From positions 32,001 through 96,000 of the IMG/VR virus record IMGVR_UViG_3300044970_000539: DNA of 64,000 nucleotides; one strand, 5' to 3'. The stretch's first letter is position 1; each line of letters begins with the position of its first letter. Below the pieces are notes generated by a model, which was given only the letters and a program-made list of their open reading frames with translations, was not told the origin of the DNA and ran no database searches. This DNA comes from a virus. Both the position numbers and the translations under genes were made by a program. Of the stretch, positions 13,483 to 39,944 are shown in pieces.

Positions 13483-13512
13483 AGAGACCTAGGCATGTCT
13501 TTATAAACTGCC
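13483..13512 (+). ncRNA. H-type pseudoknot motif, copy at the 5' end of the endolysin transcript
   Basis: AGAGAC-CTAGGCAT-GTCTTT-ATAAAC-TGCC, directly after TATAAT 13471-13476. Confidence 0.55.
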
Positions 13513-13534
13513 CCTTAATATTAGGAGATAAAAA

Positions 13535-14338
13535 ATGGCAGCAAAGGGTAGTCTAGAAGCAATCATTGAGGTTGCAAAGAAAGAAGTAGGAACTATTGAA
13601 GGTCCTAAAGATAACGAGACAAAGTATGGTAAATGGACTGGAATGAACTTCCAACCGTGGTGCCAATCATTTGTTTCGTGGTGTGCATTCACATCTGGTT
13701 TAGATGCAAAGAAGTATCCAAAGTCTGCATCAACAGTAGCAGCATCAGATTGGTTTAAAAAGAATGATCGCTGGGCAGATGCTCGTAATGATGATCCAAC
13801 TCCAGGAGACTGGATTTATTTTGATTTTCCAGAAGATGGTGTAAACCGTATTTCACATGTTGGTATTTGTATTAAAAATAATGGAAACGGAACTATCCAA
13901 GTTATTGAAGGCAACACTTCAGGAACTGCAAAGGGAGACCAAAGAAATGGCGGAATGTGCGTAGAAAAGACTCGTGCATACGTTAAGGAAAATAAGTTAA
14001 AACTTATCAATGGAATTGTTGGTTGGGGTCGTCCAGTTTATGCTGGTGAAGAAAACCTTCCACTTCTTTCTAAGGTTGGATCATCTGATGCTCCAGTTAA
14101 AAAATCTGCTCCAGCCTCTTCAACACCTTCAGCACCTGCAGTTAAGAAAGAGTTTAAGCAGTTTAAAGAAGGAGCAAAAGGTTCACCTGTTAAAAAGATT
14201 CAAGAAGCACTTGGCTTAAAGGCTGATGGAGTTTTTGGTCCAGGAACATCTAAAGCAGTTAAAGATTTTCAATCTAAGTCTAAACTTCCAGCAACTGGAA
14301 TTGTAGATTTAAAAACATATAAGGCTATTTTGAAGTAA
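13535..14338 (+). CDS. CHAP amidase/endolysin with C-terminal peptidoglycan-binding domain
   Basis: PWCQSFVSW, SHVGI, IEGNT; C-terminal IQEALGL.ADGVFGP.T..AVK.FQ. Confidence 0.88.
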   Translation: MAAKGSLEAIIEVAKKEVGTIEGPKDNETKYGKWTGMNFQPWCQSFVSWCAFTSGLDAKKYPKSASTVAASDWFKKNDRWADARNDDPTPGDWIYFDFPEDGVNRISHVGICIKNNGNGTIQVIEGNTSGTAKGDQRNGGMCVEKTRAYVKENKLKLINGIVGWGRPVYAGEENLPLLSKVGSSDAPVKKSAPASSTPSAPAVKKEFKQFKEGAKGSPVKKIQEALGLKADGVFGPGTSKAVKDFQSKSKLPATGIVDLKTYKAILK

Positions 14339-14523
14339 TGCCAGTATATGAATACAAATGCACAGGACAATGTTCTGAAATTGTAATCAAACAAAGATCT
14401 ATTAAGGATAGCGATCCAGGGTATGAGTGTGAAACTTGCACTCTACCACTGGAACGTGTATACTCTAATGTAACAGCAGTATTCAACGGTAGTGGATTTT
14501 ATTCCACTGATAACAGAAAGTAG
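14338..14523 (+). CDS. FmdB-family zinc-ribbon protein
   Basis: MPVYEYKC..C...C..C...F.GSGFYSTD. Confidence 0.85.
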   Translation: MPVYEYKCTGQCSEIVIKQRSIKDSDPGYECETCTLPLERVYSNVTAVFNGSGFYSTDNRK

Positions 14524-14532
14524 CGGTATACT

Positions 14533-14787
14533 ATGAACATGACAATGACAAAAGAAGTTGTTCAAGAAGAGTGGATTTTAAATGCAACAGACAGATGTGA
14601 TGCTTGTGCAGCAGAAGCCCTTGTAAAGGTAACTGGATTATCTGGAGACTTAATGTTTTGTGGACATCACTACAACAAGATTATGGATAATAAAGAAGGG
14701 TATAAGAAGATGATTTCTTTTGCACTTTCAGTTGTTGATGAACGACATAAACTTATTGAAAACAAGTCAAAGGGGCAAGATTACTAA
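14533..14787 (+). CDS. hypothetical Zn-binding protein
   Basis: DRCDAC...FCGHH; probable leaderless start at 14539. Confidence 0.7.
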   Translation: MNMTMTKEVVQEEWILNATDRCDACAAEALVKVTGLSGDLMFCGHHYNKIMDNKEGYKKMISFALSVVDERHKLIENKSKGQDY

Positions 14788-15194
14788 TGTATGAATACTA
14801 TGTAAGAAAAGTAGAGAACGTAGTAGATGGAGACACTATTGACGTTATTATTGATTTAGGGTTTGATATCTTGTTTGCATCTCGTGTAAGGTTGGCTGGG
14901 ATCGATACCCCAGAGTCTCGCACAAAAGATCTTGCTGAAAAGGCTCTTGGACTTGAAGCCAAGGAGTACTTAAAGAAGTCTTTAAAGGACGCTAAGTCTG
15001 TTGTTATTAAGACTGAGAAGATGGACTCATCTGAAAAGTATGGTCGTATTTTAGGTTGGGTATATGTAGATGACAACACTGTTTCACTTAACGACATGAT
15101 GATTAATGATGGCTATGCCTGGGGATATCTTGGAGATACAAAGGTTAAAGATTTTACAGCCCTTGCAAAAGCCAGAAAAAAGTCTGGAAAATGA
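14787..15194 (+). CDS. thermonuclease (SNase-like)
   Basis: VVDGDT, RVRLAGIDTPE, KYGRILG. Confidence 0.9.
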   Translation: MYEYYVRKVENVVDGDTIDVIIDLGFDILFASRVRLAGIDTPESRTKDLAEKALGLEAKEYLKKSLKDAKSVVIKTEKMDSSEKYGRILGWVYVDDNTVSLNDMMINDGYAWGYLGDTKVKDFTALAKARKKSGK

Positions 15195-16048
15195 AAAAAA
15201 ATTTAACTTTGGCAAAAATAATAAAAGAAAATAGTTTTTCTAATTTTACAGAATTTGAAAAAATAATATCAATGAAATACACTAATTTTTTTAACGCCAA
15301 AATAAAAGAAAAAGAACTTAATAAAAATTTTATAGAACCAAATAATTTAATTTTTATGAATGATGGATATGCAGAAATAGACGAAAATGGTTATCCTTAC
15401 GATTCACAAAAAATAAAAAATATTTTATTAAATCCAAAATTTATTCAATTTAAATATCAAATAAATTTATACAAAAGATTATTAAATTTTGCTGATATTC
15501 AAAACAATAAAAATGTAAAAGTTTTAATAGATGTAGGTTGCGGTAAAGGTGGAGGAATTTCTTTTTATAAACAGTTTTATAATTTTGATAAATGTATTGG
15601 AATTGATTTAACTAAAATAAATATAGAGTTAGCAAAACAACACGAAAAAAATGTTTCTTTTTATGTTGCTTCTGCAACTAATCTTCCTATAAATGATAAA
15701 ACAGTAGATGTAATCACATCTGTTGAATCTTTGATGTATTACGACCCACTTATCAAATTTATTGAAGAGGCTAGGCGAGTTCTAAAAAACAATGGGAAAT
15801 TTTTAATATCAATGCCATTGACCGAACAAGAAGAAAATAACTTAGAAGAGTCATTTACTAACAATGGGTTTATATTAAGTAAAAAAGAAGATATAACAGA
15901 AAATGTAAGAATGGCTTGTGCAATATCAAAAAATAGGTTTAGAAATTCTTCATTTCAAGAATCAGAAATTATGAGAAATGATGAAGAGAGATATTTCAAC
16001 AAAACCGTATTTTACAAAAATTTTGTATTTATTAAAAAGGGCGATTAA
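15191..16048 (+). CDS. class I SAM-dependent methyltransferase (very AT-rich)
   Basis: LIDVGCGKGGG, GIDL, A.NLP....VDVI, RVLK..G. Confidence 0.85.
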   Translation: MKKNLTLAKIIKENSFSNFTEFEKIISMKYTNFFNAKIKEKELNKNFIEPNNLIFMNDGYAEIDENGYPYDSQKIKNILLNPKFIQFKYQINLYKRLLNFADIQNNKNVKVLIDVGCGKGGGISFYKQFYNFDKCIGIDLTKINIELAKQHEKNVSFYVASATNLPINDKTVDVITSVESLMYYDPLIKFIEEARRVLKNNGKFLISMPLTEQEENNLEESFTNNGFILSKKEDITENVRMACAISKNRFRNSSFQESEIMRNDEERYFNKTVFYKNFVFIKKGD

Positions 16049-16050
16049 AA

Positions 16051-16278
16051 TTGATGGATATAAAAAGTCAAGCCTTATTAGAGCATTTAATTATTCAAGG
16101 TGCAATTGAGATATCTGGTATTGATCAATCTGGTGAGATGACATACTCAATTACTGATAAGTTACAAGAGGTTCATCCAGAACTATACATGCAACTTAAA
16201 GATGAGTTTGAACATAACATGTTTGAAATGATAGATCAAGGACCAAAGGTTATGACGTGGAAGATTAGGACAAGATAA
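16051..16278 (+). CDS. hypothetical protein, paralog of 16529-16858
   Basis: LIIQGAIEISGID...YSITDKLQEVHPELY. Confidence 0.7.
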   Translation: MMDIKSQALLEHLIIQGAIEISGIDQSGEMTYSITDKLQEVHPELYMQLKDEFEHNMFEMIDQGPKVMTWKIRTR

Positions 16279-16536
16279 ATGAATATGATTCTTTATTTTA
16301 CTGCTGATTGGTGTAACCCTTGTAAAAAAACAAAGCCAATTGTTGAAGAGTTAAATCGTGAACAAATTATGGCTAAATTCTTTATAGTTGACGTTGATTC
16401 AGAGATTGAGATGACTAAAGATTTTGAGATTAGATCTGTTCCTACTTTTGTAGTAATGAAGGATAATACTGAGATTTATCGTGTAACTGGTGCACAAACA
16501 AGGCAACAGTTAGAGGAGTTAATTAGATATGAATAA
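16279..16536 (+). CDS. thioredoxin
   Basis: FTADWCNPCK, VDVD, IRSVPT. Confidence 0.9.
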   Translation: MNMILYFTADWCNPCKKTKPIVEELNREQIMAKFFIVDVDSEIEMTKDFEIRSVPTFVVMKDNTEIYRVTGAQTRQQLEELIRYE

Positions 16537-16858
16537 CAATGAAGATGAACTAATCAAAAATCTTATACTTGAAGGTGCCCTAGAAGTGGCTGGAGTAGAT
16601 TCAGAAACAAATGAACTTTTGTATACTATTACTCCAAAAATGCAAGAGGTCATGCCAGATATGTATGAAGACCACCTAACTCAAGTAAATAGGGATCTTT
16701 TAAATTTATGGGAAAAGGGTTATGTTAATATTGATTTTTTACTAGCAGATCCAGTAGTTACAATATCTGAAAAAGGTCTTGATAAGGCTGAGGTTGCTAA
16801 ATTAACCAAGCCAGAAATCTGGGCACTAGAAGAGGTAAAGAGATTACTAAAAAGGTAA
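16529..16858 (+). CDS. hypothetical protein, paralog of 16051-16278
   Basis: LILEGALEVAGVD...YTITPKMQEVMPDMY. Confidence 0.7.
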   Translation: MNNNEDELIKNLILEGALEVAGVDSETNELLYTITPKMQEVMPDMYEDHLTQVNRDLLNLWEKGYVNIDFLLADPVVTISEKGLDKAEVAKLTKPEIWALEEVKRLLKR

Positions 16859-16896
16859 AGTCTGATATAATCAGTATATAAACTAGGAGGATTGTT

Positions 16897-17646
16897 ATGC
16901 CATACAGAGTTGGAGCCAAAGGTTCTTTTGGGTGTTCTGGATACCCTGCACTAAAAGAAGGCACAAATGAAGTTATGGGTTGCCACACAACCCGTGCTGA
17001 GGCTGCTGCACAGATTTATGCAATCAATCGCTCTGAAGGCAACATAGGGAAAAGTATGAATGAAATTAAAGAGGGTGATTTCGTTATGGGAATGACCTCT
17101 GAAGGAATGGTTCACGGAATTGTTGAGCACATTATGATAGAAGGCGGAGTCTATGGGGTTCCTGGAACAGAATATGCAATTCAGTCTATGCCACCAGAAA
17201 ATCCAGCAATGGCTGTTAGAATTTATGAAGAAGAAGATGGTAAGTGGGAGCCAACCGCATATAGTATTGGAATGATGTACAAGGATGCACAGGTTGTAGA
17301 TATAAACAACCACACTATGGAAGATGATAAAGAAGAAATGGATTCAGAAGTTGCAATGGCAATGTATGATTCATCAATTGGAAAATCAGAAGAAAAGGAA
17401 GATGAAATGGAAAAAGCAAAAAAGCCTAACTATGGTGAAATGATTCAACCACGTCGTGGTGGATCAACACCTTCTAATCCAAGACTTTATGCAAGAGTTG
17501 TGCAGGCAGCAAAAGATAAATTTGATGTGTATCCATCTGCAGTTGCAAACTCTTGGGTTGTTCAAGAATACAAGCGTCGTGGTGGAACATATAAGTCTGA
17601 AAAATCAGCAGAGTTGGATAATTTTTGGAATGGATTTTTAAAATAA
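16897..17646 (+). CDS. hypothetical phage protein, possibly virion-associated
   Basis: AGGAGG RBS; C-terminal YPSAVAN.W...YKRRGG.Y motif. Confidence 0.7.
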   Translation: MPYRVGAKGSFGCSGYPALKEGTNEVMGCHTTRAEAAAQIYAINRSEGNIGKSMNEIKEGDFVMGMTSEGMVHGIVEHIMIEGGVYGVPGTEYAIQSMPPENPAMAVRIYEEEDGKWEPTAYSIGMMYKDAQVVDINNHTMEDDKEEMDSEVAMAMYDSSIGKSEEKEDEMEKAKKPNYGEMIQPRRGGSTPSNPRLYARVVQAAKDKFDVYPSAVANSWVVQEYKRRGGTYKSEKSAELDNFWNGFLK

Positions 17647-17780
17647 TGCCAAAGAAAAAAGCACAATCATTTAATGCAACACAAATCAAAGATGGAAAGA
17701 TTGTACGCATGAATAAAAACGGTACAGTTAAATCTATTATTGGTCCTTATGAAGTGAAGCATCCAAAGAAGGGTAAGTAA
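17646..17780 (+). CDS. small basic protein
   Basis: MPKKKAQSF...KKGK 44 aa, TAATG-coupled on both sides. Confidence 0.6.
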   Translation: MPKKKAQSFNATQIKDGKIVRMNKNGTVKSIIGPYEVKHPKKGK

Positions 17781-18151
17781 TGGCAGATACATATTCACCT
17801 AATGCAGGCATGAAGGCTGCTGCAAGACGTGCTTTGAAGTGGAAAGAAGATGGAAAGGCAACAGGGGCTGGAACTCCAGTAGGTTGGGGCAGAGCAACAG
17901 ATATTGTTAGCGGTGCATCTATGTCTCTTGATACTGTCAAAAGAATGTACTCTTTCTTTTCACGTCATGAAGTAGATAAAAAAGGTAAAGGTTTCTTTGA
18001 TGGACCAGAGTTTCCATCAAATGGAAGAATAATGTGGGACGCATGGGGCGGAGATGCAGGTTTTGCATGGAGTCGTGCTATCGTTGAACGTGAAAAAAAT
18101 AAAACAGAAAAGGTTTGGCAAGGAAGTCCATTTAGTTTTAAGGGGGAATAA
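17780..18151 (+). CDS. hypothetical phage protein
   Basis: TVKRMYSFFSRH...WDAWGGDAG..W motif. Confidence 0.75.
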   Translation: MADTYSPNAGMKAAARRALKWKEDGKATGAGTPVGWGRATDIVSGASMSLDTVKRMYSFFSRHEVDKKGKGFFDGPEFPSNGRIMWDAWGGDAGFAWSRAIVEREKNKTEKVWQGSPFSFKGE

Positions 18152-18153
18152 AT

Positions 18154-18333
18154 ATGGAAGATTTAACGATTGATGAATTAAGACAACTTCTGACATTCTA
18201 CAAGCAAAGAGCGTCAGACGTAGAGTTTACATTCTTACAGACACAGATAAAACTAAATAAGTTTATATCTGATCAATTAATTTCAGATCAAAATGTTTCA
18301 AAAAAAGAAACACCAGAAAAAACAACTAAATAA
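18154..18333 (+). CDS. small hypothetical protein
   Basis: MEDLTIDELRQLL... 59 aa with AGGGGG RBS. Confidence 0.6.
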   Translation: MEDLTIDELRQLLTFYKQRASDVEFTFLQTQIKLNKFISDQLISDQNVSKKETPEKTTK

Positions 18334-18345
18334 TTAGGAGAAAAG

Positions 18346-18762
18346 ATGCAGGCTATTTTGATTATCGGCTTGACATTGATCTCTTTTTCGTCTATAATTA
18401 TAGTAATGAACAAAAAAAGAAAAAACTCTTTTAATAAAATACTATATCGTCAAAGCGATATGCATAATATATTAAAGGATTTTTTCTTTAAAGATATTTT
18501 TGATGACAAGGTTGTTACATCTCAGTCTAAAATTTGGAAAGAGAAACAGACAACCAAGGTAGTCATAATAGATCAAAAGGCATATTGGGTATCAAATAAC
18601 ATGTTCTATGTTGGAGATACAGTAGATGGAAAGGTCAGACCAGAAACTGGAAGACCTTTAGATACAACCAAGATGTCAAAAAAAGAAGTAGATAAGATGT
18701 TATTCATCCTGGATAACTTAAAGAATGGGAAACTAAATGATAGTGGCAGTGCAGGGAACTAA
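18346..18762 (+). CDS. membrane-anchored hypothetical protein
   Basis: N-terminal hydrophobic helix, AGGAG RBS. Confidence 0.65.
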   Translation: MQAILIIGLTLISFSSIIIVMNKKRKNSFNKILYRQSDMHNILKDFFFKDIFDDKVVTSQSKIWKEKQTTKVVIIDQKAYWVSNNMFYVGDTVDGKVRPETGRPLDTTKMSKKEVDKMLFILDNLKNGKLNDSGSAGN

Positions 18763-19087
18763 TGAGTTTGATGACTATAATCTATTCCTTCGTGCTATAA
18801 GCGTTGCTTTATCTGGAATGAAAGAAGAAGAAAAAGATTTTATAATTTATTCTGTTGGTCCAACAAGGGTCAACTCTTTTGTTTCAGAGTTTTCAAACCT
18901 TTCAGAAAGAGGAATGAAAGCAAGGGGTCGTAAGATAAAGTTTTATAAAGTTCCAGAAAGTTGGGTACATGACAACATGGACAGCGTAAACTATTTTGCA
19001 TTTCTTAGCAAACCAAAAGAGCCAGTATCCAAACTAACTACTTTTGCAGAATCAAAAAATGTAGAAGTAGGAATATTCCGTTACTAA
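18737..19087 (+). CDS. hypothetical protein
   Basis: 116 aa ORF in operon. Confidence 0.7.
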   Translation: MIVAVQGTNEFDDYNLFLRAISVALSGMKEEEKDFIIYSVGPTRVNSFVSEFSNLSERGMKARGRKIKFYKVPESWVHDNMDSVNYFAFLSKPKEPVSKLTTFAESKNVEVGIFRY

Positions 19088-19100
19088 AAGAAAGAATACA

Positions 19101-19310
19101 ATGATAATTAATTCGTTAGCACAAATGGAAAAGATTGTTTCAAAGAACAAAGAACTTGAATGGGTTGGCTGGGATGTTGTTGAACGCAAGCGATCAGACC
19201 TTGCAAGAACATCACCAAGCGGAGTTCGTGTAAAAAATGCATGGTACCTACAAAAAACTTTTAACCTTAATCGTAATGGTTGGGATATTCCAAACAAATA
19301 CGGTCAGTAA
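19101..19310 (+). CDS. hypothetical protein
   Basis: 69 aa Trp-rich ORF in operon. Confidence 0.7.
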   Translation: MIINSLAQMEKIVSKNKELEWVGWDVVERKRSDLARTSPSGVRVKNAWYLQKTFNLNRNGWDIPNKYGQ

Positions 19311-19595
19311 ATGAAGCAACATTTATGGAAAGATCAAGCAGCGTGTCTTGGTCTTGATACTAATATCTTTTTTGATAAGTATGAAGACAATGTAGATGTG
19401 CGCCCAATTGTAGATTCAATGTGCCAAAGGTGTCCAGTATCAAAGGTTTGCTTTGCTAACGGTGTTTCTGGTAAAGAGTACGGTGTATGGGGTGGGGTGT
19501 TCCTTGAACTTGGAAATATATCTAGAGAGTTTAATAAACACAAAACCAAACAAGACTGGGCTAATACTTGGCAAGCATTGACAATGGAGAAATAA
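19311..19595 (+). CDS. whiB: WhiB-family transcription regulator
   Basis: W...AAC...FF...CQRCPV...C...GVWGG. Confidence 0.92.
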   Translation: MKQHLWKDQAACLGLDTNIFFDKYEDNVDVRPIVDSMCQRCPVSKVCFANGVSGKEYGVWGGVFLELGNISREFNKHKTKQDWANTWQALTMEK

Positions 19596-20737: not shown

Positions 20738-20757
20738 TGTTAGGATATAATTAAAAC

Positions 20758-21359: not shown

Positions 21360-21367
21360 GAGGAAAA

Positions 21368-25889: not shown

Positions 25890-25960
25890 TAGACCTAGAA
25901 GGTAATGCTCCTTCTTCTCAGGATTAAAAGTCCTGAGCATCACTTTAATGCTTTAGGTCC
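25890..25960 (-). tRNA. trnK: tRNA-Lys(TTT), atypical T-loop
   Basis: GGACCTA/TAGGTCT, CAGGA-CTTTTAA-TCCTG; T-loop AGCATTA. Confidence 0.8.
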
Positions 25961-32325: not shown

Positions 32326-32438
32326 AGCGTCCCCCTTCTATCCATTATACCAAAAGTATAGGGGGAGGGCAACCCACCACAGATGCCCTCCACCCTTTGG
32401 CATAGTCTGACCCTAGATCTATGCCTGCTCATTGTAAA

Positions 32439-32941: not shown

Positions 32942-33300
32942 AGGTCTATTCCTTCGCAGTCGTGGGTTTCTTCTTCAAGTGTATCACCGCAGAAATCACA
33001 TGTCAAGTCTGGTTCTCCTACCATGATTTGAATAATAGTATTATCAGGCACAGGCTTCTCACTAAGGAAATAGCCAATGCGATTAACAAATCCCCAGCCG
33101 CTCCAGATATAGGTACCGCCATCGTCTCCGTCGCCATACATCCAGATGCGGTTTTGTGGCTGGGACTTAATAAACTCTACCTCATCACCATAGGTCTCAT
33201 ACATCAAACCATCAAAGGAGGCATCTATGTCATATGAGTTAAGTATAAACTTAAACTGCTCATCTGCTTCTTCAAAGGTCATTTCAATAAGTTTATCCAT
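32938..33300 (-). CDS. hypothetical phage protein
   Basis: YETYG.E..F, IW...GD, GW.FVNRIGY. Confidence 0.7.
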   Translation of the reverse strand: MDKLIEMTFEEADEQFKFILNSYDIDASFDGLMYETYGDEVEFIKSQPQNRIWMYGDGDDGGTYIWSGWGFVNRIGYFLSEKPVPDNTIIQIMVGEPDLTCDFCGDTLEEETHDCEGIDL

Positions 33301-33882: not shown

Positions 33883-34098
33883 CTAATTATACGGGTTGGT
33901 GTTGATTTTCACAAGCCCACGGGGTGTGACCTTGCTCACATCTGTAATGATAGGGGCATTTCCATCTTCTTCTGATATTAGGACAACTATTCCATACCCT
34001 CCACAAATACAGGCAGGATCAAGAACCTTATCAGCACAAGCAGTGATTTGAATCAGCGCATCACAATCAGTACATAGATAATCATACTTAGTCCACAT
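33883..34098 (-). CDS. small Zn-ribbon protein
   Basis: CTDC...CICG. Confidence 0.6.
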   Translation of the reverse strand: MWTKYDYLCTDCDALIQITACADKVLDPACICGGYGIVVLISEEDGNAPIITDVSKVTPRGLVKINTNPYN

Positions 34099-34630
34099 TG
34101 ATTACTCCCCAGCACTTATCGCAGGTAAAGCCATTAGGTAGGGAAACATCATCAACTCTATCTCCTTCTACCCCATCCCAGCAGGGTACACAAATAACAC
34201 AATCATCTAAGTAAACACCAATAGTATTCATTAGTCAAAATACCCTTCTGCCCATAAGCCCTGGAGAAACTGTTGTGCCATTAAGATACCCTCTTTATCA
34301 TCAGGGTCAGTTATATACTTATATGAATTGTGTACAGCATTGCTCATCTTATCTAAATCATCAATGGTATAACCTAACATTATTCTCCCCAATATTCTAC
34401 TATAAGGTTTAATGCACTACAGATACGGCAATCACAAGGGTCTCCCCCCATGTTTTCCATAAATTCAATGTGAGAGAAATTATCCTCACAGATTTGTTCA
34501 ACAAGGTCTTTTACTGTGTAAGGTTTGAATGTGGTAGTCATATATTAATTATAGCCGAAATCCTAGAAAAATACAAATCCTTACGTAATCGTAAAGTGTG
34601 TTTAATATCACATTGTCGAAAAATTTCTTG

Positions 34631-34704
34631 CGATCCGTACGGGACTTGAACCCGTGACCTCCACCGTGACAGGGTGGCGAACTAACCAACTATTCTAACG
34701 GACC
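34631..34704 (-). tRNA. trnD: tRNA-Asp(GTC)
   Basis: GGTCCGT/ACGGATC, CCACC-CTGTCAC-GGTGG, GTTCAAGTC. Confidence 0.93.
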
Positions 34705-34707
34705 GTG

Positions 34708-34736
34708 TGAGCAGTTTTAATTCTTACTCAGGAATT
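34708..34736 (-). ncRNA. H-type pseudoknot motif copy
   Basis: AATTC-CTGAGTAA-GAATT-AAAAC-TGCTCA. Confidence 0.65.
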
Positions 34737-34743
34737 TTTTTAA

Positions 34744-35760
34744 TTATGCAATTTGCAAAGTGCTTTGCACAATCTTTAGCAAACGATTTTTTTCTGCATT
34801 AATAGCAGGGTCAAAACCACTTGCAGATGCAAGGATAGATTCGTTAGAACCACCACGAGCAGAACGGTACCAATCAAGGCGTTCAGTTAGTGCATTGAAA
34901 GCACCCCAAGCATTACCAGCAATCATGCCGTTAAACTCGCCTGTGTAGATGTCATTGATAACATCAACCTTGTTTTCCCACTTCTTGAAAGCACCCTTAG
35001 AATCTTTTTCTGGCTTAGGGTATGCAGCAAGAATGATGTCGTTAAATTGCTTAGCAGAAACTTCCTTCTCAATCATAGCCTTAGCCATGAGGTCAAAAGA
35101 ATCCATGTACTTGTGAGCCATGCCAAGAGTCTCACGAGCAACGGCAACCTTACCAGAAGCGGTCTGAGTGTGGCGAATCTTGAAAGATTGCTTGACACCA
35201 TTCTTTTTCTTAGTAGTGTTTAGTGCAAGATTAAGAGTGTTAGCGCACACAACACGAACAGGTGTAATGCTTGCTTGAATAGCGATTGAGCCGTCATGTG
35301 ATGTGTTGATAAGTAAATAAGTCTTTACCTTATCTGCAACACCGTTAGGGTCTAGGACAGTTTCACGCTCTAGTGCTAATGCACCGAATACGACACGACC
35401 ACCCTTGATTGAGCCAGCCGTTTCCCAACGACCTCCACCGTCAAGAATGTTGTCACCGAATGAGAATAAATCTTCATTCTGCATAACATGATAACGCTCA
35501 CCAACGACACCAAGAATGTCGGTCTGTGAGTTATCAGTAGGGTTAGTACGCAAAACATACTGGTATGCCTTGTCGCTTGTTAAGTGTGATGGGGTTTCCA
35601 AATCTTCCAGACGAACATTCCAATTATTTAGATTGGCAGCAGCAAGCATTTCGCTTGTTGTTTTTTCTTCTGTAAATACGGTACCCAATCCATGCCAAGC
35701 AGGTTCACGAAATGATGCAAAACTTGCTACGCCATTTTGTGATTCTAGTTCATGTGCCAT
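34744..35760 (-). CDS. DUF932-family (TIGR03299-like) protein
   Basis: MAHELE...REPAWHGLG, Y..MQN, ETAGS..GG, YLLI.TSHDGS, TPVRVVCANTL. Confidence 0.88.
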   Translation of the reverse strand: MAHELESQNGVASFASFREPAWHGLGTVFTEEKTTSEMLAAANLNNWNVRLEDLETPSHLTSDKAYQYVLRTNPTDNSQTDILGVVGERYHVMQNEDLFSFGDNILDGGGRWETAGSIKGGRVVFGALALERETVLDPNGVADKVKTYLLINTSHDGSIAIQASITPVRVVCANTLNLALNTTKKKNGVKQSFKIRHTQTASGKVAVARETLGMAHKYMDSFDLMAKAMIEKEVSAKQFNDIILAAYPKPEKDSKGAFKKWENKVDVINDIYTGEFNGMIAGNAWGAFNALTERLDWYRSARGGSNESILASASGFDPAINAEKNRLLKIVQSTLQIA

Positions 35761-35936
35761 GAGTTTTCTCCTTTTTGTTGTTGTTAATTTAAGTATACAC
35801 GGACGGTCTGACAAATGCAAATCGGGATAGTTAAACATAGGGCAATTCGGACATTTTTCTTGTGATCTTAAACACATGCTCGTAACTTGACATTGACTGG
35901 TCAGCCGTGTCGAAAAATTTTTCAAGGGATTGAGCG

Positions 35937-35964
35937 GAGCAGTTTTAAAACATGCTCAGGTTTT
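35937..35964 (-). ncRNA. H-type pseudoknot motif copy
   Basis: AAAAC-CTGAGCAT-GTTTT-AAAAC-TGCTC. Confidence 0.65.
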
Positions 35965-35979
35965 GTTAGTAGCCCCCTA

Positions 35980-36396
35980 CTAAATATCTACTCTGTCAAC
36001 ACTGGATGACAAATAAGTTACCTCTTCACCATATGAAACAGAATCAAAATCAATTTCATGAATTGCATTAATTGCTTCTTCTTCATTACGTGCATTGACT
36101 GTAATTGAATACTGAACTGAAACTTCCAATTCAAATTCTTTTGCTAATTCAAAACCACAGATGTCTGCAATTTCTTGTGCAGTGCTCTCATCAATGGTAC
36201 CGTTTTCCATTGTTTCCAAGGTCCACTCTTGCATTTCATTACGCATACGGGAGCGCTCTGCAGCCTCGCCGTATGAGCGCTGAGTTACTTCTTGAATGTG
36301 CTTTTCTAATTGCTCAATGCGTGTTTTGTTTTGTACTAGTTGTGACTCAAGAAACTCTCGTGTCATGTAGTGATTGTCTATTACTGGTTGGTCCAT
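35980..36396 (-). CDS. acidic hypothetical protein
   Basis: 138 aa, own promoter and RBS. Confidence 0.75.
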   Translation of the reverse strand: MDQPVIDNHYMTREFLESQLVQNKTRIEQLEKHIQEVTQRSYGEAAERSRMRNEMQEWTLETMENGTIDESTAQEIADICGFELAKEFELEVSVQYSITVNARNEEEAINAIHEIDFDSVSYGEEVTYLSSSVDRVDI

Positions 36397-36472
36397 GGGG
36401 GCCCTCTTTCTGTTAGTTGTTTAATTTAATTATACTGGGCACCACTGACAAATGTCAAGATCCCCTTACGGG

Positions 36473-36499
36473 GAGTAGTTTATACACATACTCAGGTGT
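36473..36499 (-). ncRNA. H-type pseudoknot motif copy
   Basis: ACAC-CTGAGTAT-GTGT-ATAAAC-TACTC. Confidence 0.65.
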
Positions 36500-36554
36500 C
36501 TCATCTCAGGCATACCTACGCATCATGGCATAGGGCTTAGCAGAGATAAATTAT

Positions 36555-36980
36555 TTAGAGATAACGAGCAATAGCGTTGTATGTAGAAGTATTAACTACT
36601 TCCTCATCTGTCATCTTGAGAATACGAATAGCGTTCTCAATTTCCTGCTTTTGCTCTAGGTATGAGTGACGACCCATTTGCTCAAACTCACGCTCAGGCT
36701 CTACTGGCAGACCTTCTTTAGATACTGTCAGGTCAAAGTCAATGTTGAGTTGGTTGTTCCATGAGCGATAGTTAGTGCGGAAGTTTTCTGCCTTCTTGAT
36801 GTTTGCTACTGCATACTCAACAAGTTCCTTCTGCCACTTCTCATAAGCCTTCTTATACTTTGCTTCGTTTGCTTCTTGTGAGGTGTAAGACTTTTCTAGT
36901 TCTGCTAAACGAGTTTCTAGTGCCTTAATTACCTTTGGTGTTGCGATTTTTACTGAGATTGATTTTCCGTTTCTTGCCAT
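36555..36980 (-). CDS. hypothetical phage protein
   Basis: 141 aa helical, EIENAIRILKMTDEE.V.TSTY. Confidence 0.75.
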   Translation of the reverse strand: MARNGKSISVKIATPKVIKALETRLAELEKSYTSQEANEAKYKKAYEKWQKELVEYAVANIKKAENFRTNYRSWNNQLNIDFDLTVSKEGLPVEPEREFEQMGRHSYLEQKQEIENAIRILKMTDEEVVNTSTYNAIARYL

Positions 36981-37025
36981 GTGTTTTCTCTTTTCTTTGG
37001 TGGTTTAATTGTTAGGGGGTTGTGT

Positions 37026-37054
37026 TGAGCAGTTTGTATTCATGCTCAGGAATA
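37026..37054 (-). ncRNA. H-type pseudoknot motif copy
   Basis: TATTC-CTGAGCAT-GAATA-CAAAC-TGCTCA. Confidence 0.65.
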
Positions 37055-37064
37055 AGCAATTAGA

Positions 37065-37229
37065 TTACTTAGCCGTCCAAGTTGTGTATCGGTGTGAGCC
37101 ATTGACATCTAACTTTACACGAACATTACCATTTGGTTGTGGGTTAATCTCTACGATTGTTCCTGTTACCTTTGACTTCTGTGTTGTGTATGTGTCGCCT
37201 ACCTTGTAGGTTGCTGTTGCTACTGACAT
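37065..37229 (-). CDS. small SH3/KOW-like beta protein
   Basis: YKVGD...TGTIVEI...VRVKL; AAGGAG RBS. Confidence 0.65.
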   Translation of the reverse strand: MSVATATYKVGDTYTTQKSKVTGTIVEINPQPNGNVRVKLDVNGSHRYTTWTAK

Positions 37230-37444
37230 TGTGTTTCTCCTTTTGTTTAGTGTGTTTTGCTTATGTATTAAGTGTAACATTTCCTACTGACATTATCAAC
37301 ATTTTTCTGAGATTTCTCACTATTTGAGACGCTCAGGGGGTGTGAGTTGAGTCACATTAGACAGATTGAGGGCTATTGTCCACCTGCCACGATTAGCATG
37401 ATTAGTAGCCCTATTCCTGTTGCTATTACTATTTCCATTTTTCC

Positions 37445-38167
37445 TCATTTCTTTGTTGCTGAGAATACTATGTCACTCTTTGAGTATACACAAAGTGAGC
37501 AAGAAACGCAAGCCGAACCCTTAGTGCTAATTAGTGGTATCTGCTTATTATTCTCAGGACACTTAGCGCCAGGTTTATTTGTTAGGGCTTTCATGTCTGC
37601 TTGTCCAATTAGAAAGTTTTTAGCAAGGTATGCTAATTTAACTCCATGATCTGTTTTTAATTCCACACCTGTATCTTTATTCTCGCTATCTGTGGAATAG
37701 TATAGTGAGAGATTATCAATACCCTTCAACATTAGGGCGGCACTTTTAACTCTAGTGTAAACCCAGAATTGAATATCAGGATTATTAAGGATGACATGCT
37801 TCCATGCGAATGTATAAGTATCGTTAAAGAAGTCTCCGTCCCAATGGATACGGAATAGCATAGGGGCTTCACGCTTTACACAATCAGCCTTGAAGTCTTT
37901 TATCATATCTTCAAGCAATGCTTCAATAGTATCGTGATCAGCGTCTTTAACTAATTCCCAATTGTGCAATAGGTTTTTCTTTACTGTTGGGAATACTTTT
38001 TCCAATTTGCCAGCATAACAAACACTCTCGCATACGCTAGTCGCTCCAGGGCATGAATAAGCCTTTCCTGCGGGTAATCCGAAAGTGTTGGCGATACTTG
38101 CTTGTTTTCCATTTGGTGTAACTGCATTTGCTACTTTCCTATCTTTGCTTCTTAGTAGTTTAGTCAT
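37445..38167 (-). CDS. GP88-like protein (Cys-rich, possible Fe-S enzyme)
   Basis: FGLPAG..SCPGAT..C..VCYA, FRIHWDGDF, FWVYTR, NLSLY.S.D. Confidence 0.75.
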   Translation of the reverse strand: MTKLLRSKDRKVANAVTPNGKQASIANTFGLPAGKAYSCPGATSVCESVCYAGKLEKVFPTVKKNLLHNWELVKDADHDTIEALLEDMIKDFKADCVKREAPMLFRIHWDGDFFNDTYTFAWKHVILNNPDIQFWVYTRVKSAALMLKGIDNLSLYYSTDSENKDTGVELKTDHGVKLAYLAKNFLIGQADMKALTNKPGAKCPENNKQIPLISTKGSACVSCSLCVYSKSDIVFSATKK

Positions 38168-38421
38168 GGTGGCTACTCTCTTTCTTTCTTTAATTCTAAC
38201 ATAAGGGACTGACATTTTTTTCTATCGTATTTTTTCTTATTGGGTACGGCAGAGGCAGCGTTAGACCTACGTAATTCCATAAGCCTACGTAATTCCTCTT
38301 TGCTTTTCTTCATACTTAATCTTAGCAGAATCGTGGAAAAATGTCAAATCTTACGTAAACACGACACGCCCGACTGCGTTCGAAAATTTTGTGCGGGGAA
38401 GCACACAAAATCTTTTTTTAA

Positions 38422-38664
38422 TTATTCGTCAGCGTCTACGTAAACGTAAAGAGAAACTGATTCATCATACTTAAATTGCACAATGTCTTTGTCACCAAAA
38501 TCGGTTTTATAAGCAACCGCATAGACATCGCCTGTTTCATCGGATGCAATTCCAAGTACTTCAACAACCTCACCATCAACCATGATTAGATCTTCAATCA
38601 TTAGTTGATCTGGTGTTAGGCTATCTGCAAATTTTAATTCCATATTAGATATTGTAACAGTCAT
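38422..38664 (-). CDS. small acidic beta protein
   Basis: ORF with GGGGG RBS. Confidence 0.6.
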   Translation of the reverse strand: MTVTISNMELKFADSLTPDQLMIEDLIMVDGEVVEVLGIASDETGDVYAVAYKTDFGDKDIVQFKYDESVSLYVYVDADE

Positions 38665-38727
38665 TTTAACGAGCCCCCGCAATCATTAGTAGGAATAAAA
38701 AGCAGCCTGCAACAAATAAGAATTCTA

Positions 38728-39048
38728 TCACTCAAGCCCCAATCCTAACTCATAGCCTGCATCCTCTTCGCCATAGTATTCATCTTGTGGCAACCAAAAA
38801 TCCAAGTGGTGTTGTTCAATGATAGCCCACGCTGGTGCATGACTCATGCCTTTATAGAATACGCCTTCTGGCATAGCAATAAATCGCATAGCGTCATTCT
38901 CATAGTATGCATCAATAGCATCAATGCAAGGTTGCACCATGCTTAGCGGTACTGGTGGATAGTGATTACCTTGCAAGTGATAACCAATAGCCTGTTCAAG
39001 TGGTAGATCTAAGTTTGTTGCTAGGTCAATTCCTGTCATGCTTCCCAT
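38728..39048 (-). CDS. hypothetical phage protein
   Basis: HLQGNHYPPVP...C..AI...HHL..W. Confidence 0.7.
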   Translation of the reverse strand: MGSMTGIDLATNLDLPLEQAIGYHLQGNHYPPVPLSMVQPCIDAIDAYYENDAMRFIAMPEGVFYKGMSHAPAWAIIEQHHLDFWLPQDEYYGEEDAGYELGLGLE

Positions 39049-39269
39049 TATCGTGTTGTTACCTTTCCCATGCGGTCAATAATTTTTGTGTGCATTTTGC
39101 CTGACGGCTCTGATAAATTAATTGTTGAGTACTCATTAGCAAACCCGACATCAACAAAGCGTTGGTATGCTTCCACGGCAGTTAAAGCATCTGAGTAACG
39201 ACCAACCCAATTAGGCTTAGTGCCTGAGTCATAGGTTACTGTTATTGAGTATAGGTATTCATTATTCAT
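39048..39269 (-). CDS. hypothetical protein
   Basis: 73 aa, coupled. Confidence 0.65.
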   Translation of the reverse strand: MNNEYLYSITVTYDSGTKPNWVGRYSDALTAVEAYQRFVDVGFANEYSTINLSEPSGKMHTKIIDRMGKVTTR

Positions 39270-39448
39270 TATGCATTCTCCAATGTGTATTCGTTTAATT
39301 CATTACTAGCGTACCATTCGCAATACTCATTTTCAAGTGTCATGCCTTTAACGCACTCACAAAACTCTGAGTCAAACTCCTCATGACCATTACCAAAAAA
39401 GAGGACACCCTCATCATAGCAATCATAGCAATCCCAATTATTCATTTA

Positions 39449-39658
39449 TTAGTCTCCAATCTTTACTGCAAGTATGCGGTATGTATCTTTTAAGTTAAGT
39501 GGTGCTGAGTAGTGGGGGCGTACCTGAACACGATAAGACTCGCAATCTTGATACCATACATCAGACTTTTCTGCTGAGATAATTTCTCCCGTAAGTGTGC
39601 GGGACTTATAAGTTTTTCCTACAAGTAGGTTTTCTATTGTATAGACATTTGCTGACAT
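39449..39658 (-). CDS. hypothetical protein
   Basis: 69 aa, AGAGG RBS, own promoter. Confidence 0.65.
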   Translation of the reverse strand: MSANVYTIENLLVGKTYKSRTLTGEIISAEKSDVWYQDCESYRVQVRPHYSAPLNLKDTYRILAVKIGD

Positions 39659-39915
39659 TTGCCAACCTCTTTCTTTTTGTTGATAATTCTATCCTACCAT
39701 AGGGGTCTGACATTTTCTGTTAGACACGCCCAAAGGTAATAGACTTTCTTTTATTTATTTTTTCTTACTATGTAAGTCTAGCCTATTAGACAAAAAATCT
39801 CAAGTTACTTATGAGTAATCTTAAATAGTGAGACGCTCAAGCCATGTGACAAATCTCACAAATCTAGCCTGTGGATAACTCTGTGGAAGACACGCCCGAA
39901 CGGGTCGAAAAAATT

Positions 39916-39944
39916 TAAGCAGTTTGAAATCATGCTTAGGATTT
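39916..39944 (-). ncRNA. H-type pseudoknot motif copy
   Basis: AAATC-CTAAGCAT-GATTT-CAAAC-TGCTTA. Confidence 0.65.

What the first reader, a model, noticed from the sequence alone, without database searches (positions are those of the whole stretch)
13483..39944. Six copies of a ~30-nt H-type RNA pseudoknot with covariation in both stems
Seen: consensus [S1]C-CT(G/A)(A/G)G(C/T)A(T/A)-G[S1']-AAAC-[S2'] at 13483(+), 34708, 35937, 36473, 37026, 39916 (-), always on the transcribed strand. Stem 1 differs in every copy yet pairs (AGAGAC/GTCTTT, AATTC/GAATT, AAAAC/GTTTT, ACAC/GTGT, TATTC/GAATA, AAATC/GATTT). Stem 2 covaries (GAGCA/TGCTC, GAGTA/TACTC, TAAGCA/TGCTTA, GGCA/TGCC) and the AAAC linker is invariant. 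Four copies start 5-15 nt after a stop codon, one of them ending 3 nt before tRNA-Asp; the 13483 copy begins at the predicted TSS of the endolysin mRNA. I do not recognise it as a named riboswitch or ribozyme. Inference: an exonuclease-blocking end structure, processing or antitermination signal, or protein/ligand-binding RNA.
Basis: partly seen in the sequence, partly recalled or inferred. Interest (0 to 1): 0.8.

Follow-up and report, generated by a model that had tools for sequence, protein, structure and literature searches.

The report
Coremin-like RNA pseudoknot capping phage genes
The six repeats are real copies of a tiny (about 28-base) interlocked RNA fold that phages of many bacterial phyla place a few bases after a gene's stop codon or just before a tRNA. 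It is in no RNA catalogue I could search. It closely resembles the plant-virus 'coremin' knot that stops RNA-degrading enzymes and ribosomes. Its job in phages is untested.

Summary
Observation confirmed. All six copies exist as described, and they are the only six in the 105-kb phage genome. The degenerate pattern gives 5 matches against 0.24 expected by chance.

The same motif recurs in at least 119 viral contigs, about 64 bacterial or MAG loci, and named phages of Staphylococcus, Lactobacillus, Geobacillus, Mycobacterium, Arthrobacter, Nostoc, Synechococcus, Paracoccus and Vibrio. On 141 distinct copies both stems covary (score 0.463 against 0.164 when shuffled, 0 of 500 shuffles as high). 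G·U pairs and gene-strand orientation show that it acts as RNA.

The fold is:
- S1 of 4 bp, closed by a C-G pair
- L1 = CU
- S2 of 5 bp (RRRYA:URYYY)
- a junction U
- L3 = NNAAAC

No Rfam family matches.

The context is general rather than gene-specific. S1 starts 5–11 nt after the upstream stop codon, with a sharp onset at 5 nt. A tRNA follows the motif 19 times and never precedes it. A U-tract follows in 13–19% of copies against 2% in controls.

The closest known relatives are the coremin xrRNA (xrRNA-C and its Watson-Crick variant WCC) and BWYV-type frameshifter pseudoknots. Some copies share GUC…GAC-GUUAAACUAC with coremin letter for letter, but the phage motif has no hp2 hairpin.

My best reading (confidence about 0.45) is a protein-independent mechanical roadblock that marks cistron ends. 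The function is untested. This scan has reported the same motif before, on other genomes.

The parts
13483..13512 (+). Copy 1. S1 AGAGAC/GUCUUU (6 bp, includes a G·U), loop CUAGGCAU, L3 AUAAAC, S2 GGCA/UGCC (4 bp). It lies 21 nt after the Hsp20 stop codon and begins at the predicted transcription start of the endolysin mRNA.
   Evidence: 25.4 bits; promoter 13448-13476; promoter conserved in L082, L083 and L093.
34709..34736 (-). Copy 2. S1 AAUUC/GAAUU, loop CUGAGUAA, L3 AAAAC, S2 GAGUA/UGCUC (includes a G·U). It lies 7 nt after the DUF932 gene's stop codon and 4 nt before tRNA-Asp.
   Evidence: 43.4 bits. The orthologous DUF932→motif→tRNA-Asp arrangement occurs in 10 other loci.
35937..35964 (-). 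Copy 3. S1 AAAAC/GUUUU, loop CUGAGCAU, L3 AAAAC, S2 GAGCA/UGCUC. It lies 15 nt after the stop codon of the 138-aa ORF and upstream of the DUF932 gene.
   Evidence: 41.3 bits.
36473..36499 (-). Copy 4. S1 ACAC/GUGU, loop CUGAGUAU, L3 AUAAAC, S2 GAGUA/UACUC. It is followed directly by the hairpin CCCCGUAAGGGG and then by a perfect sigma-70 consensus promoter (36458→36429).
   Evidence: (40.3 bits). The same motif–hairpin–promoter layout occurs in L109.
37027..37054 (-). Copy 5. S1 UAUUC/GAAUA, loop CUGAGCAU, L3 CAAAC, S2 GAGCA/UGCUC. It lies 10 nt after the stop codon of the 71-aa ORF and 46 nt before the start of the 141-aa ORF.
   Evidence: 42.2 bits.
39916..39944 (-). Copy 6. S1 AAAUC/GAUUU, loop CUAAGCAU, L3 CAAAC, S2 UAAGCA/UGCUUA. 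It lies 5 nt after the stop codon of the 50-aa ORF and is followed by AAAUUUUUU.
   Evidence: (42.1 bits).

Best explanation
The motif is a cis-acting, self-contained RNA element: a compact H-type pseudoknot of the coremin / BWYV kind. S1 has 4 bp closed by a C-G pair. L1 (CU) crosses the deep groove of a 5-bp S2. A single junction U lies between the stems, and an A-rich L3 ending in AAAC lies along S1.

Phages and other mobile elements put it at the end of a cistron. It starts 5-11 nt after the stop codon, so the terminating ribosome can sit next to it without unwinding it.

I infer that it works without any dedicated protein, as a mechanical roadblock for machines that move along RNA. These would be exoribonucleases coming from either side, and ribosomes that slide or read on after termination. 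The result would be stable RNA ends and insulation of the neighbouring unit, whether that is the next cistron, a tRNA or the start of the next transcript. Where a U-tract follows, the knot probably also serves as the structured half of an intrinsic terminator.

Shown here: the fold, its RNA nature, its distribution, its anchoring to stop codons, and its sequence likeness to coremin.

Inferred only: that it blocks anything, and in which direction.
For: Fold and RNA level:
- On 141 distinct copies, 89.9% of cells are paired, against 73.8% when shuffled and at most 39.8% when partners are slid.
- The covariation score is 0.463 against 0.164, with 0 of 500 shuffles as high.
- S2 is 98.6% paired, with GC↔AU and CG↔UA/UG exchanges. 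Many G·U pairs occur, which the DNA complement could not form.
- Divergent copies add GGACA/UGUCC, AGACA/UGUCU and GGGCA/UGCCC.
- Compensatory changes occur at orthologous sites.

Orientation: 124 of 135 intergenic copies have a same-strand gene upstream.

Anchoring to the stop codon: the distance from stop codon to S1 begins abruptly at 5 nt (26 cases). It stays at 7-13 cases per position for 6-11 nt, falls to 1-2 per position beyond that, and is never 0-3 nt. By established knowledge this matches the 5-nt reach of the ribosome's mRNA entry channel past the A site, and the spacers of -1 frameshift signals. The leaky stop codon TGA is under-used upstream: 8 observed against 24 expected, p about 0.001.

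General rather than gene-specific:
- The flanking gene families are diverse.
- Hosts span Firmicutes, Actinobacteria, Cyanobacteria, Proteobacteria, Bacteroidota and CPR bacteria.
- The phages include Autographiviridae, which by established knowledge use their own RNA polymerase.
This argues for a mechanism that needs no phage-specific partner.

Boundary positions:
- A tRNA follows the motif within 200 nt 19 times (11 of them within 13 nt) and never precedes it.
- A U-tract follows in 13-19% of copies against 2% of controls.
- In four related loci, including this window, a conserved promoter places the transcription start at the edge of the knot.

Likeness to a proven roadblock: coremin is GUCCGAAGACGUUAAACUAC. 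It needs a 3-4-bp hp1 with a C-G closing pair, and the AAA and CU of its spacer; the spacer's UU is tolerant. Its authors model it as a BWYV-like pseudoknot. It stalls Xrn1, blocks scanning ribosomes and drives -1 frameshifting, including in an E. coli screen. The phage motif conserves and varies the same positions. Some copies contain GUC…GAC-GUUAAACUAC letter for letter.
Against:
- Coremin needs a second hairpin (hp2) to resist Xrn1. The phage motif has none: an adjacent hairpin occurs in 9.3% of copies against 8-15% of controls.
- Bacteria have no Xrn1. The motif also occurs in hosts that by established knowledge largely lack RNase J: a Vibrio phage and a Polynucleobacter contig.
- The direction of protection is unresolved. 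Some contexts fit a 3' cap of the upstream message, such as convergent gene ends with a U-tract. Others fit a 5' cap of the downstream one, such as a transcription start at the knot, or a position after a terminator in phage phiEF-1.1.
- The very strong conservation of S2 sequence and purine/pyrimidine orientation could equally reflect recognition by a factor.
- Counts include related phages, so the statistics are not phylogenetically independent.
Confidence: 0.45

Rival explanations
1. Processing signal for a universal endoribonuclease, most plausibly RNase P. The stacked S1-S2 helix would mimic a tRNA acceptor arm, as the TYMV tRNA-like pseudoknot does. L1 U would sit at position -1, the S2 G at +1, and the A after S2' would act as discriminator. 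Cleavage would cut polycistronic RNA at cistron ends, a phage version of tRNA punctuation.
For: - The motif sits directly before tRNAs in several unrelated lineages: the G000 group (tRNA-Asp), L086 (tRNA-Gly), Arthrobacter phage Molivia (tRNA-Gly) and Nostoc phage NMeng1.
- U before S2 is invariant among the pattern-selected copies, G or A opens S2, and A follows S2' in 67% of copies.
- The host range is universal, which fits a universal enzyme.
- From established knowledge, not tested here: RNase P cleaves pseudoknotted tRNA-like structures and some intercistronic mRNA sites.
Against: - The stack is only 9 bp, against 12 in tRNA, and there is no T-loop mimic.
- No CCA is conserved after the A.
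- The motif never follows a tRNA or sits inside a tRNA cluster, as a true tRNA mimic might.
- It always follows protein genes.
- No cleavage data exist.
Confidence: 0.14
2. Transcription element. The knot replaces the hairpin of an intrinsic terminator or pause site, so its main job is to end or punctuate transcription units.
For: - A U-tract (at least 6 T in 9 nt) directly follows S2' in 13% of viral and 19% of bacterial copies, against 2% of controls.
- In CPR bacteria the motif plus U-tract is the only structure between convergent genes (L132, L152, L157).
- Copy 4 in the window is followed by a hairpin and then a perfect promoter, which marks the end of a unit.
Against: - About 80-85% of copies have no U-tract and lie 20-40 nt before the next co-directional gene.
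- Five copies lie within 5 kb of one co-directional gene block in this window.
- The motif also occurs in Autographiviridae, which by established knowledge use a different polymerase.
- In phage phiEF-1.1 the motif lies just downstream of a canonical hairpin terminator.
Confidence: 0.12
3. Binding site for a trans-acting protein, from phage or host. This could be a translational repressor or activator, an RNA chaperone, or a defence or counter-defence protein, for example a decoy resembling type III antitoxin pseudoknots.
For: - S2 sequence and purine/pyrimidine orientation, L1, L2 and AAAC are far more conserved than pairing alone requires.
- Copies cluster among early genes in this phage.
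- Rare tandem arrays occur: L195 with a 32-nt period and L036.
Against: - No protein family co-occurs in the flanks; the commonest family is present in only 19 of 120 loci.
- The phages carrying it are unrelated, ranging from 40-kb podoviruses to 233-kb myoviruses, and mostly have one copy each.
- The conserved positions are the same ones that coremin needs for a protein-free fold.
Confidence: 0.08
4. Recoding or termination-control signal. The knot would make ribosomes read through or frameshift at the preceding stop codon, or would control re-initiation on the next gene.
For: - The spacing of 5-11 nt from the stop codon equals the spacers of frameshift and readthrough signals (the spacer lengths are established knowledge).
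- Coremin-type knots drive up to about 30% -1 frameshifting in vitro.
Against: - No slippery sequence precedes the stop codons.
- In-frame extensions are short, with a median of about 9 codons and many of 0-5.
- The downstream gene shows no preferred frame relative to the stop codon (32, 26 and 20 cases).
- The tightest stop codon, TAA, is preferred, and the leaky TGA is avoided.
- Downstream genes have their own Shine-Dalgarno sequences.
Confidence: 0.05
5. Small-molecule riboswitch aptamer with a preQ1-I-like architecture, or a very small self-cleaving ribozyme.
For: - The size and topology resemble preQ1-I (from my own knowledge).
- The conserved unpaired nucleotides cluster at the helical junction.
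- Small ribozymes are common in phage intergenic DNA (from my own knowledge).
Against: - There is no association with any gene function.
- There are up to six copies per genome.
- No expression platform or conserved flank exists.
- The junction nucleotide L2 varies (U > A > C).
- Copies sit before tRNAs and between convergent genes.
- No Rfam riboswitch or ribozyme family matches, even at E≤10 on an 81-nt slice.
Confidence: 0.05
6. A DNA-level site, such as a protein-binding, nicking or replication signal, rather than an RNA.
For: The motif is short, dispersed and highly conserved. DnaA-box-like sequences lie near copy 6.
Against: - Its orientation follows the gene strand.
- Both stems covary, and G·U pairs are tolerated; these would be A·C mismatches on the other strand.
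- The pseudoknot pairing has no known double-stranded DNA counterpart.
- The motif is anchored to stop codons.
Confidence: 0.02

Closest known systems
Coremin motif (xrRNA-C) and its Watson-Crick variant (xrRNA-WCC) of beny-, cucumo- and other eukaryotic RNA viruses (Dilweg et al.; PMC6546385, PMC10520033, PMC10321173)
   Same: - A short 5' hairpin of 3-5 bp whose stem sequence is free but whose loop-closing pair is C-G.
- A loop that begins with a pyrimidine and contains GA.
- A spacer in which the first two bases are tolerant and AAAC-U is essential.
- Loop-to-spacer pairing that gives a BWYV-like H-type pseudoknot, with A-rich L3 adenosines predicted to lie on S1.
- Some phage copies read GUC…GAC-GUUAAACUAC, identical to coremin outside the loop.
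- Both occur after coding regions and sometimes in tandem.
   Different: - The phage loop has 8 nt (CUGAGCAU), not YGAD or YGNNAD.
- S2 has 5 canonical pairs with clear covariation, not 3 non-canonical or 3 Watson-Crick pairs.
- L1 has 2 nt.
- There is no hp2 hairpin, which coremin needs to resist Xrn1.
- The carriers are DNA phages and bacterial mobile elements, whose hosts have no Xrn1.
- The motif is anchored 5-11 nt after a stop codon.
- Nuclease resistance is untested.
Luteovirus/enamovirus -1 frameshifting pseudoknots (BWYV, PLRV, ScYLV, PEMV-1)
   Same: - A compact H-type knot: a short S1, a 2-nt L1 beginning with C, a single junction U, and an A-rich L3 ending next to S2. The BWYV details are from established knowledge; the resemblance is also noted by the coremin authors.
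- The distance from the A-site codon (5-11 nt) is like a frameshift spacer.
   Different: - No slippery heptamer precedes the motif.
- A stop codon, not a sense codon, precedes it.
- No extended or shifted reading frame follows.
- S2 has 5 bp rather than 3.
- There are many copies per genome, in unrelated genes.
preQ1-I riboswitch aptamer (Rfam RF00522)
   Same: A roughly 30-nt H-type pseudoknot with an A-rich 3' tail lying in the S1 groove (from my own knowledge).
   Different: - No Rfam match, even at E≤10.
- No queuosine-related or other consistent downstream gene.
- No sequestered Shine-Dalgarno sequence or terminator.
- A variable junction nucleotide.
Intercistronic mRNA stabilisers and processing sites of bacteria and phages (REP elements, T7 RNase III sites, 5'-terminal stem-loops such as the T7 gene 10 or ompA leaders)
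   Same: Short structures placed between co-transcribed genes or at transcript ends, which set segmental mRNA stability (from established knowledge). This is the functional analogy I favour.
   Different: - Those are simple hairpins, specific to a lineage, and recognised or bounded by known enzymes.
- This motif is a sequence-conserved pseudoknot shared across bacterial phyla and anchored to stop codons.

Membership tests
Coremin / xrRNA-C | A 5' hairpin (hp1) of 3-5 bp with free stem sequence and a loop-closing pair that is pyrimidine-purine (C-G; G-C is inactive). | tested here: met
   S1 is 4 bp. The closing C-G pair was fixed by the search pattern that selected these 141 copies. The next pair is A-U or U-A, and the outer pairs covary freely.
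Coremin / xrRNA-C | Loop consensus YGAD (4 nt) or YGNNAD (6 nt). | tested here: not met
   The phage loop is 8 nt, C-U-R-R-R-Y-A-W. It starts with a pyrimidine and ends in A-D, but position 2 is U, not G, and five loop bases form Watson-Crick pairs.
Coremin / xrRNA-C | A conserved spacer in which AAA and CU are essential and the preceding UU is tolerant. | tested here: met
   In the phage motif NN is variable, and AAAC-U is constant in the 141 copies, where it was part of the search pattern. In copies found with the covariance model only a few deviate (AAAAA, AAAAAGG).
Coremin / xrRNA-C | A second hairpin (hp2) directly after the spacer, required for Xrn1 resistance. | tested here: not met
   A hairpin of at least 4 bp starting within 4 nt of S2' occurs in 9.3% of 258 copies. 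Controls give 11.2%, 15.1% and 7.9%. The 30 nt downstream are less structured than the controls.
Coremin / xrRNA-C | Stalls a 5'→3' exoribonuclease in vitro without protein. | not testable with these tools
   This needs an Xrn1 or RNase J1 digestion assay.
xrRNA-WCC (Watson-Crick coremin) | Canonical antiparallel pairing between loop and spacer (S2), supported by compensatory changes. | tested here: met
   S2 has 5 bp and is 98.6% paired, with GC↔AU and CG↔UA exchanges. WCC itself has 3 bp and a 1-nt L1 that must be G, so the details differ.
BWYV-type -1 frameshift signal | A slippery heptamer 5-9 nt upstream, and an overlapping -1 reading frame. | tested here: not met
   A stop codon, not a slippery site, precedes the motif. 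No frame preference or extension is seen.
preQ1-I riboswitch | A match to the Rfam model, and location upstream of queuosine or preQ1 genes with an expression platform. | tested here: not met
   No Rfam match at the gathering threshold or at E≤10. The neighbouring genes are diverse.
Intrinsic terminator | A stable structure followed immediately by a U-tract. | tested here: inconclusive
   A U-tract is present in 13-19% of copies (2% in controls) and absent from the rest.
Rfam GP20-a / GP20-b motifs (upstream of scaffold genes) | A match to RF02991 or RF03003. | tested here: not met
   No match in the Staphylococcus, Lactobacillus or Geobacillus phage loci, where the motif precedes GP20-type scaffold genes.

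The most novel reading that the evidence does not exclude
This is the first nuclease- and ribosome-resistant RNA ('xrRNA') class of the prokaryotic world. It would be a protein-free, roughly 28-nt triplex pseudoknot, structurally akin to the coremin knot of plant RNA viruses. DNA phages across bacterial phyla would use it as a universal 'full stop' after cistrons, to fix RNA ends and to insulate neighbouring genes and tRNAs. This would imply either deep convergence or exchange of one fold between eukaryotic RNA viruses and phages.
Probability: 0.35. Interest if true: 0.85.

Novelty: new variant of a known kind. Interest (0 to 1): 0.78.

Why it matters
A 28-nt RNA fold conserved almost letter for letter in phages of Firmicutes, Actinobacteria, Cyanobacteria, Proteobacteria, Bacteroidota and CPR bacteria must be doing something basic in RNA biology. 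Yet it is not in Rfam, and I found it in no paper that I could search.

If it is a roadblock, it would:
- extend exoribonuclease-resistant RNAs from eukaryotic RNA viruses to bacteria;
- help explain how phages give different stability and expression to genes in long polycistronic transcripts, and how they release tRNAs;
- give synthetic biology a very small, host-independent insulator or stabiliser part.

If it is not a roadblock, its exact anchoring to stop codons points to an unknown link between translation termination and RNA structure.

It is directly testable. S. aureus Phietavirus phages (80, phiETA, phiNM4) carry a single copy between the minor head and scaffold genes.

Tried and rejected
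- Rfam: searched at the gathering threshold on the whole window, at E≤10 on 5.5 kb and on an 81-nt slice, and at E≤1 on eight named-phage loci. Only tRNAs and noise were found.
- Literature search by sequence strings: only primer-like chance hits.
- Megablast of the region, and tblastn of the 141-aa flanking protein, against named phages: no match.
- The nearest named relatives of this phage, Streptomyces phages BillNye and NootNoot (DnaE polymerase about 55% identical), have no copy.
- A seventh copy at 33233-33264 (+): rejected.
- A giant 3198-aa ORF raised the idea of an N4-like virion RNA polymerase. It is a tape-measure protein.
- A promoter placing the transcription start at the knot is not general: about 7 of 258 copies.
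- A partner protein encoded nearby: no family is shared by more than 19 of 120 loci.
- A correlation with hosts that have RNase J: suggestive among the named phages, but broken by a Vibrio phage and a Polynucleobacter contig.
- The blastn search of E. coli genomes found nothing, but it could only have found one S1 variant, so it says little.
- The supplementary tables of the 10,006-csRNA survey (PMC10690425) are not held, so I could not check whether one of its unnamed candidates is this motif.
- Tandem arrays (L036, L195) prompted a type III antitoxin idea. No toxin gene was visible on those short contig ends.

Full report
**The observation.** A degenerate pattern with a 5-nt variable stretch matches five times on the minus strand, against 0.24 expected from shuffles. 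A 7-nt version finds the plus-strand copy at 13483.

The window is bases 32001-96000 of a 105,135-bp viral genome with direct terminal repeats and 36.9% G+C. The genome encodes a 3198-aa tape-measure protein and a DnaE-type polymerase. Its endolysin has CHAP and peptidoglycan-binding domains, so I infer a large tailed phage of a low-G+C Gram-positive host.

A pattern search of the whole genome, a structural scan and a covariance model find only these six copies. A 19-bit model match at 33233 has no stem 1 and lies antisense inside an ORF, so I reject it.

**The motif is widespread.** Of 140 matches, 131 have all five S2 pairs, including two positions that the pattern left free; chance would give about 14%. 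In addition, 105 have an S1 of at least four pairs.

The same scan of one genome per prokaryotic species returned 120 loci. About 64 of these hold properly folding copies, and about 41 are plain chance matches with neither stem, which serves as an internal control. The true copies lie in Saccharibacteria and other CPR bacteria, Firmicutes, Bacteroidota, Chloroflexota, Proteobacteria and other phyla. They sit next to DUF7249, DUF3768 and GIY-YIG genes, which is mobile or phage-like DNA.

A 30-nt query against named phages found the motif in many of them:
- S. aureus Phietavirus phages (80, phiETA, phiNM4, 55, 88, 92, B236 and others)
- Lactobacillus phiEF-1.1
- Geobacillus D6E
- Mycobacterium Labelle
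- Arthrobacter Molivia
- Nostoc NMeng1 and Paracoccus ParMal1 (both Autographiviridae)
- Synechococcus S-EIVl
- Microcystis Mwe-JY13
- a crAss-like phage
- Vibrio phages

Five of these records, searched whole with the model, hold one strong copy each. The nearest named relatives of this window's phage, two Streptomyces phages, have none.

**The structure.** I scored 141 distinct copies against the pseudoknot.
- 89.9% of cells pair, against 73.8% after shuffling and at most 39.8% when partners are slid.
- The covariation score is 0.463 against 0.164, with 0 of 500 shuffles as high.
- S1 is really 4 bp.
- The closing C-G pair was fixed by the search pattern. The next pair is A-U or U-A, and the two outer pairs take any Watson-Crick or wobble pair.
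- S2 is 98.6% paired, with G-C↔A-U at its first pair and C-G↔U-A/U·G at its fourth.

Copies found only by the covariance model add GGACA/UGUCC, AGACA/UGUCU and GGGCA/UGCCC. They show L2 as U > A > C, and one copy has a 30-nt hairpin inserted at L2. At the orthologous site after the DUF932 gene, related phages carry different, compensated versions of S1 and S2.

Nothing outside about 28 nt is conserved. G·U pairs in both stems, and the gene-strand orientation, mean the pairing is selected in RNA and not in DNA.

**The context.** I used a crude ORF caller, so individual cases can be wrong.
- 135 of 163 viral copies are intergenic.
- 124 of those have a same-strand gene upstream, and 104 are flanked by co-directional genes on both sides.
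- The flanking gene families are diverse and none dominates. This is not a gene-specific regulator.

The most telling number is the distance from the stop codon to the first S1 base. It is never 0-3 nt. It jumps to 26 cases at exactly 5 nt, stays at 7-13 cases per position through 11 nt, then falls to 1-2. Five nucleotides is what the ribosome's mRNA entry channel covers past the A-site codon, and 5-9 nt is the spacer of frameshift signals (established knowledge). So the knot sits as close as it can to a terminating ribosome without being unwound.

Upstream stop codons avoid the leaky TGA: 8 observed against 24 expected from each locus's own usage, p about 0.001, not corrected for relatedness.

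Downstream, the next start codon is typically 20-40 nt away and has its own Shine-Dalgarno sequence.

A tRNA gene follows the motif within 200 nt in 19 cases, 11 of them within 13 nt, and never precedes it. The close cases come from the G000 group and L086. Arthrobacter phage Molivia and Nostoc phage NMeng1 add two more.

A U-tract directly follows S2' in 13% of viral and 19% of bacterial copies, against 2% of controls. In some CPR loci it is the only structure between convergent genes.

In three unrelated Firmicute phages the motif lies between the portal or minor-head gene and the scaffold and major capsid genes.

In this window and three relatives, a conserved -35/-10 promoter puts the transcription start at the 5' edge of the knot. 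This arrangement is rare overall.

In the window, copy 4 is followed by a small hairpin and a perfect consensus promoter.

**What it resembles.** No Rfam family matches at any threshold tried.

Earlier reports of this scan on other genomes describe the same motif and name the plant-virus coremin motif as the closest relative. I checked that lead in the primary papers. Coremin is GUCCGAAGACGUUAAACUAC. It needs:
- a 3-4-bp hairpin whose stem sequence is free but whose closing pair must be C-G (or U-A; G-C is dead);
- a YGAD loop;
- a spacer whose UU tolerates change but whose AAA and CU do not;
- a second hairpin, hp2.

Its authors model it as a BWYV-like H-type pseudoknot. They found a Watson-Crick variant. 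They showed that it stalls Xrn1, blocks scanning ribosomes and drives -1 frameshifting.

The phage motif keeps the same positions constant and the same ones free. In copies whose S1 happens to be GUC/GAC it reads GUC-(loop)-GAC-GUUAAACUAC, identical to coremin outside the loop.

It also differs:
- The loop has 8 nt.
- S2 has five canonical pairs.
- L1 has two bases.
- There is no hp2.

It is therefore not a member of the coremin family as defined, but it is a close structural relative. Its L1 starting with C, its single junction U and its A-rich L3 also match BWYV-type frameshifter knots (established knowledge). There is no slippery site, no extended frame and no frame preference, so recoding is unlikely.

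**How it most likely works.** Four facts together point to a self-contained physical property rather than a dedicated partner:
- the motif is used across phyla, and in phages that carry their own RNA polymerase;
- it has no partner protein in the flanks;
- it sits at boundaries (ORF to ORF, ORF to tRNA, ORF to terminator, promoter to ORF);
- it looks like a proven protein-free roadblock.

I therefore favour a mechanical barrier at cistron ends. It would stop exoribonucleases, and perhaps post-termination or read-through ribosomes. That would fix RNA ends and insulate neighbours. The knot would double as the structured part of a terminator where a U-tract follows.

The direction is open. Convergent-gene and U-tract cases, and the RNA end left when RNase P frees a downstream tRNA, fit a 3' cap for the upstream message. 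A transcription start at the knot, the position after a terminator in phiEF-1.1 and the position before highly expressed capsid genes fit a 5' cap for the downstream RNA.

None of this is shown.

The main rivals, each given with its evidence in the report sections, are:
- an RNase P (tRNA-acceptor-like) processing signal
- a terminator or pause element
- a protein-binding site
- recoding
- a riboswitch or ribozyme
- a DNA site

**Novelty and caveats.** I found the motif in no RNA catalogue and in no searchable paper. A 2023 survey of 10,006 unnamed viral RNA candidates may include it, but its tables are not held. This scan has reported the same motif before on other genomes. That neither raises nor lowers my assessment.

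Counts include related phages and rest on simple ORF calling.

Noticed in passing
window 39870-39890 (- strand): Two DnaA-box-like 9-mers lie about 30-45 nt downstream of copy 6: TTATCCACA (a perfect consensus, 39878-39870) and TCTTCCACA (39890-39882). They follow a small hairpin, CGACCCGTTCGGGCG. This may be a replication origin or a DnaA-titrating site.
   Followed up: no
window 36429-36458 (- strand): A perfect sigma-70 consensus promoter (TTGACA-18-TATAAT, 12 of 12 matches) lies directly after copy 4 and the hairpin CCCCGTAAGGGG. The same motif–hairpin–promoter layout occurs in locus L109.
   Followed up: partly
window about 35905-35925 and 39905-39915 (- strand); also L009, L053, L109: A recurrent box resembling AAAAATTTTTCGAC(C/A)CG lies a few to about 25 nt downstream of copies 3 and 6 and of their orthologues in related phages. 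It could be an operator, a promoter element or another binding site.
   Followed up: no
window 25890-25960 (- strand): Rfam calls an eighth tRNA here (44 bits), inside the Arg/Ile/Met tRNA cluster. ARAGORN does not report it, so it may be a divergent or degenerate tRNA.
   Followed up: no
L195:2782-2884 (Saprospiraceae MAG contig end) and L036:3795-3900: Head-to-tail arrays of the motif: three or more exact 32-nt units in L195, and four degenerate units of about 28 nt after a stop codon in L036. They recall the tandem coremin copies of some plant viruses and type III antitoxin repeats. No toxin gene is visible on these short contigs.
   Followed up: partly
L048:3082-3146 (- strand): A copy with a 30-nt insertion at the L2 position. 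The insertion can form its own hairpin (AAGGAA…TTCCTT), which shows that the junction tolerates an extra arm.
   Followed up: no
L097, L102, L114, L115, L060, L027 (about 60 nt upstream of the motif after Hsp20): In these relatives a TATAAT box is followed by two conserved hairpins and then by the knot, all ahead of the next gene. This forms a structured leader of about 90 nt that differs from the arrangement in this window.
   Followed up: no
G000 (L126:5224-14820): A very long tape-measure protein (3198 aa), which implies an unusually long tail.
   Followed up: partly
L042:2947, L011:11355 and 12079, L053:4529: A sub-variant of the motif ends in …AAAAAGGCUC instead of …AAACUGCUC. S2 would then be 4 bp, and the C of AAAC is replaced.
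   Followed up: no
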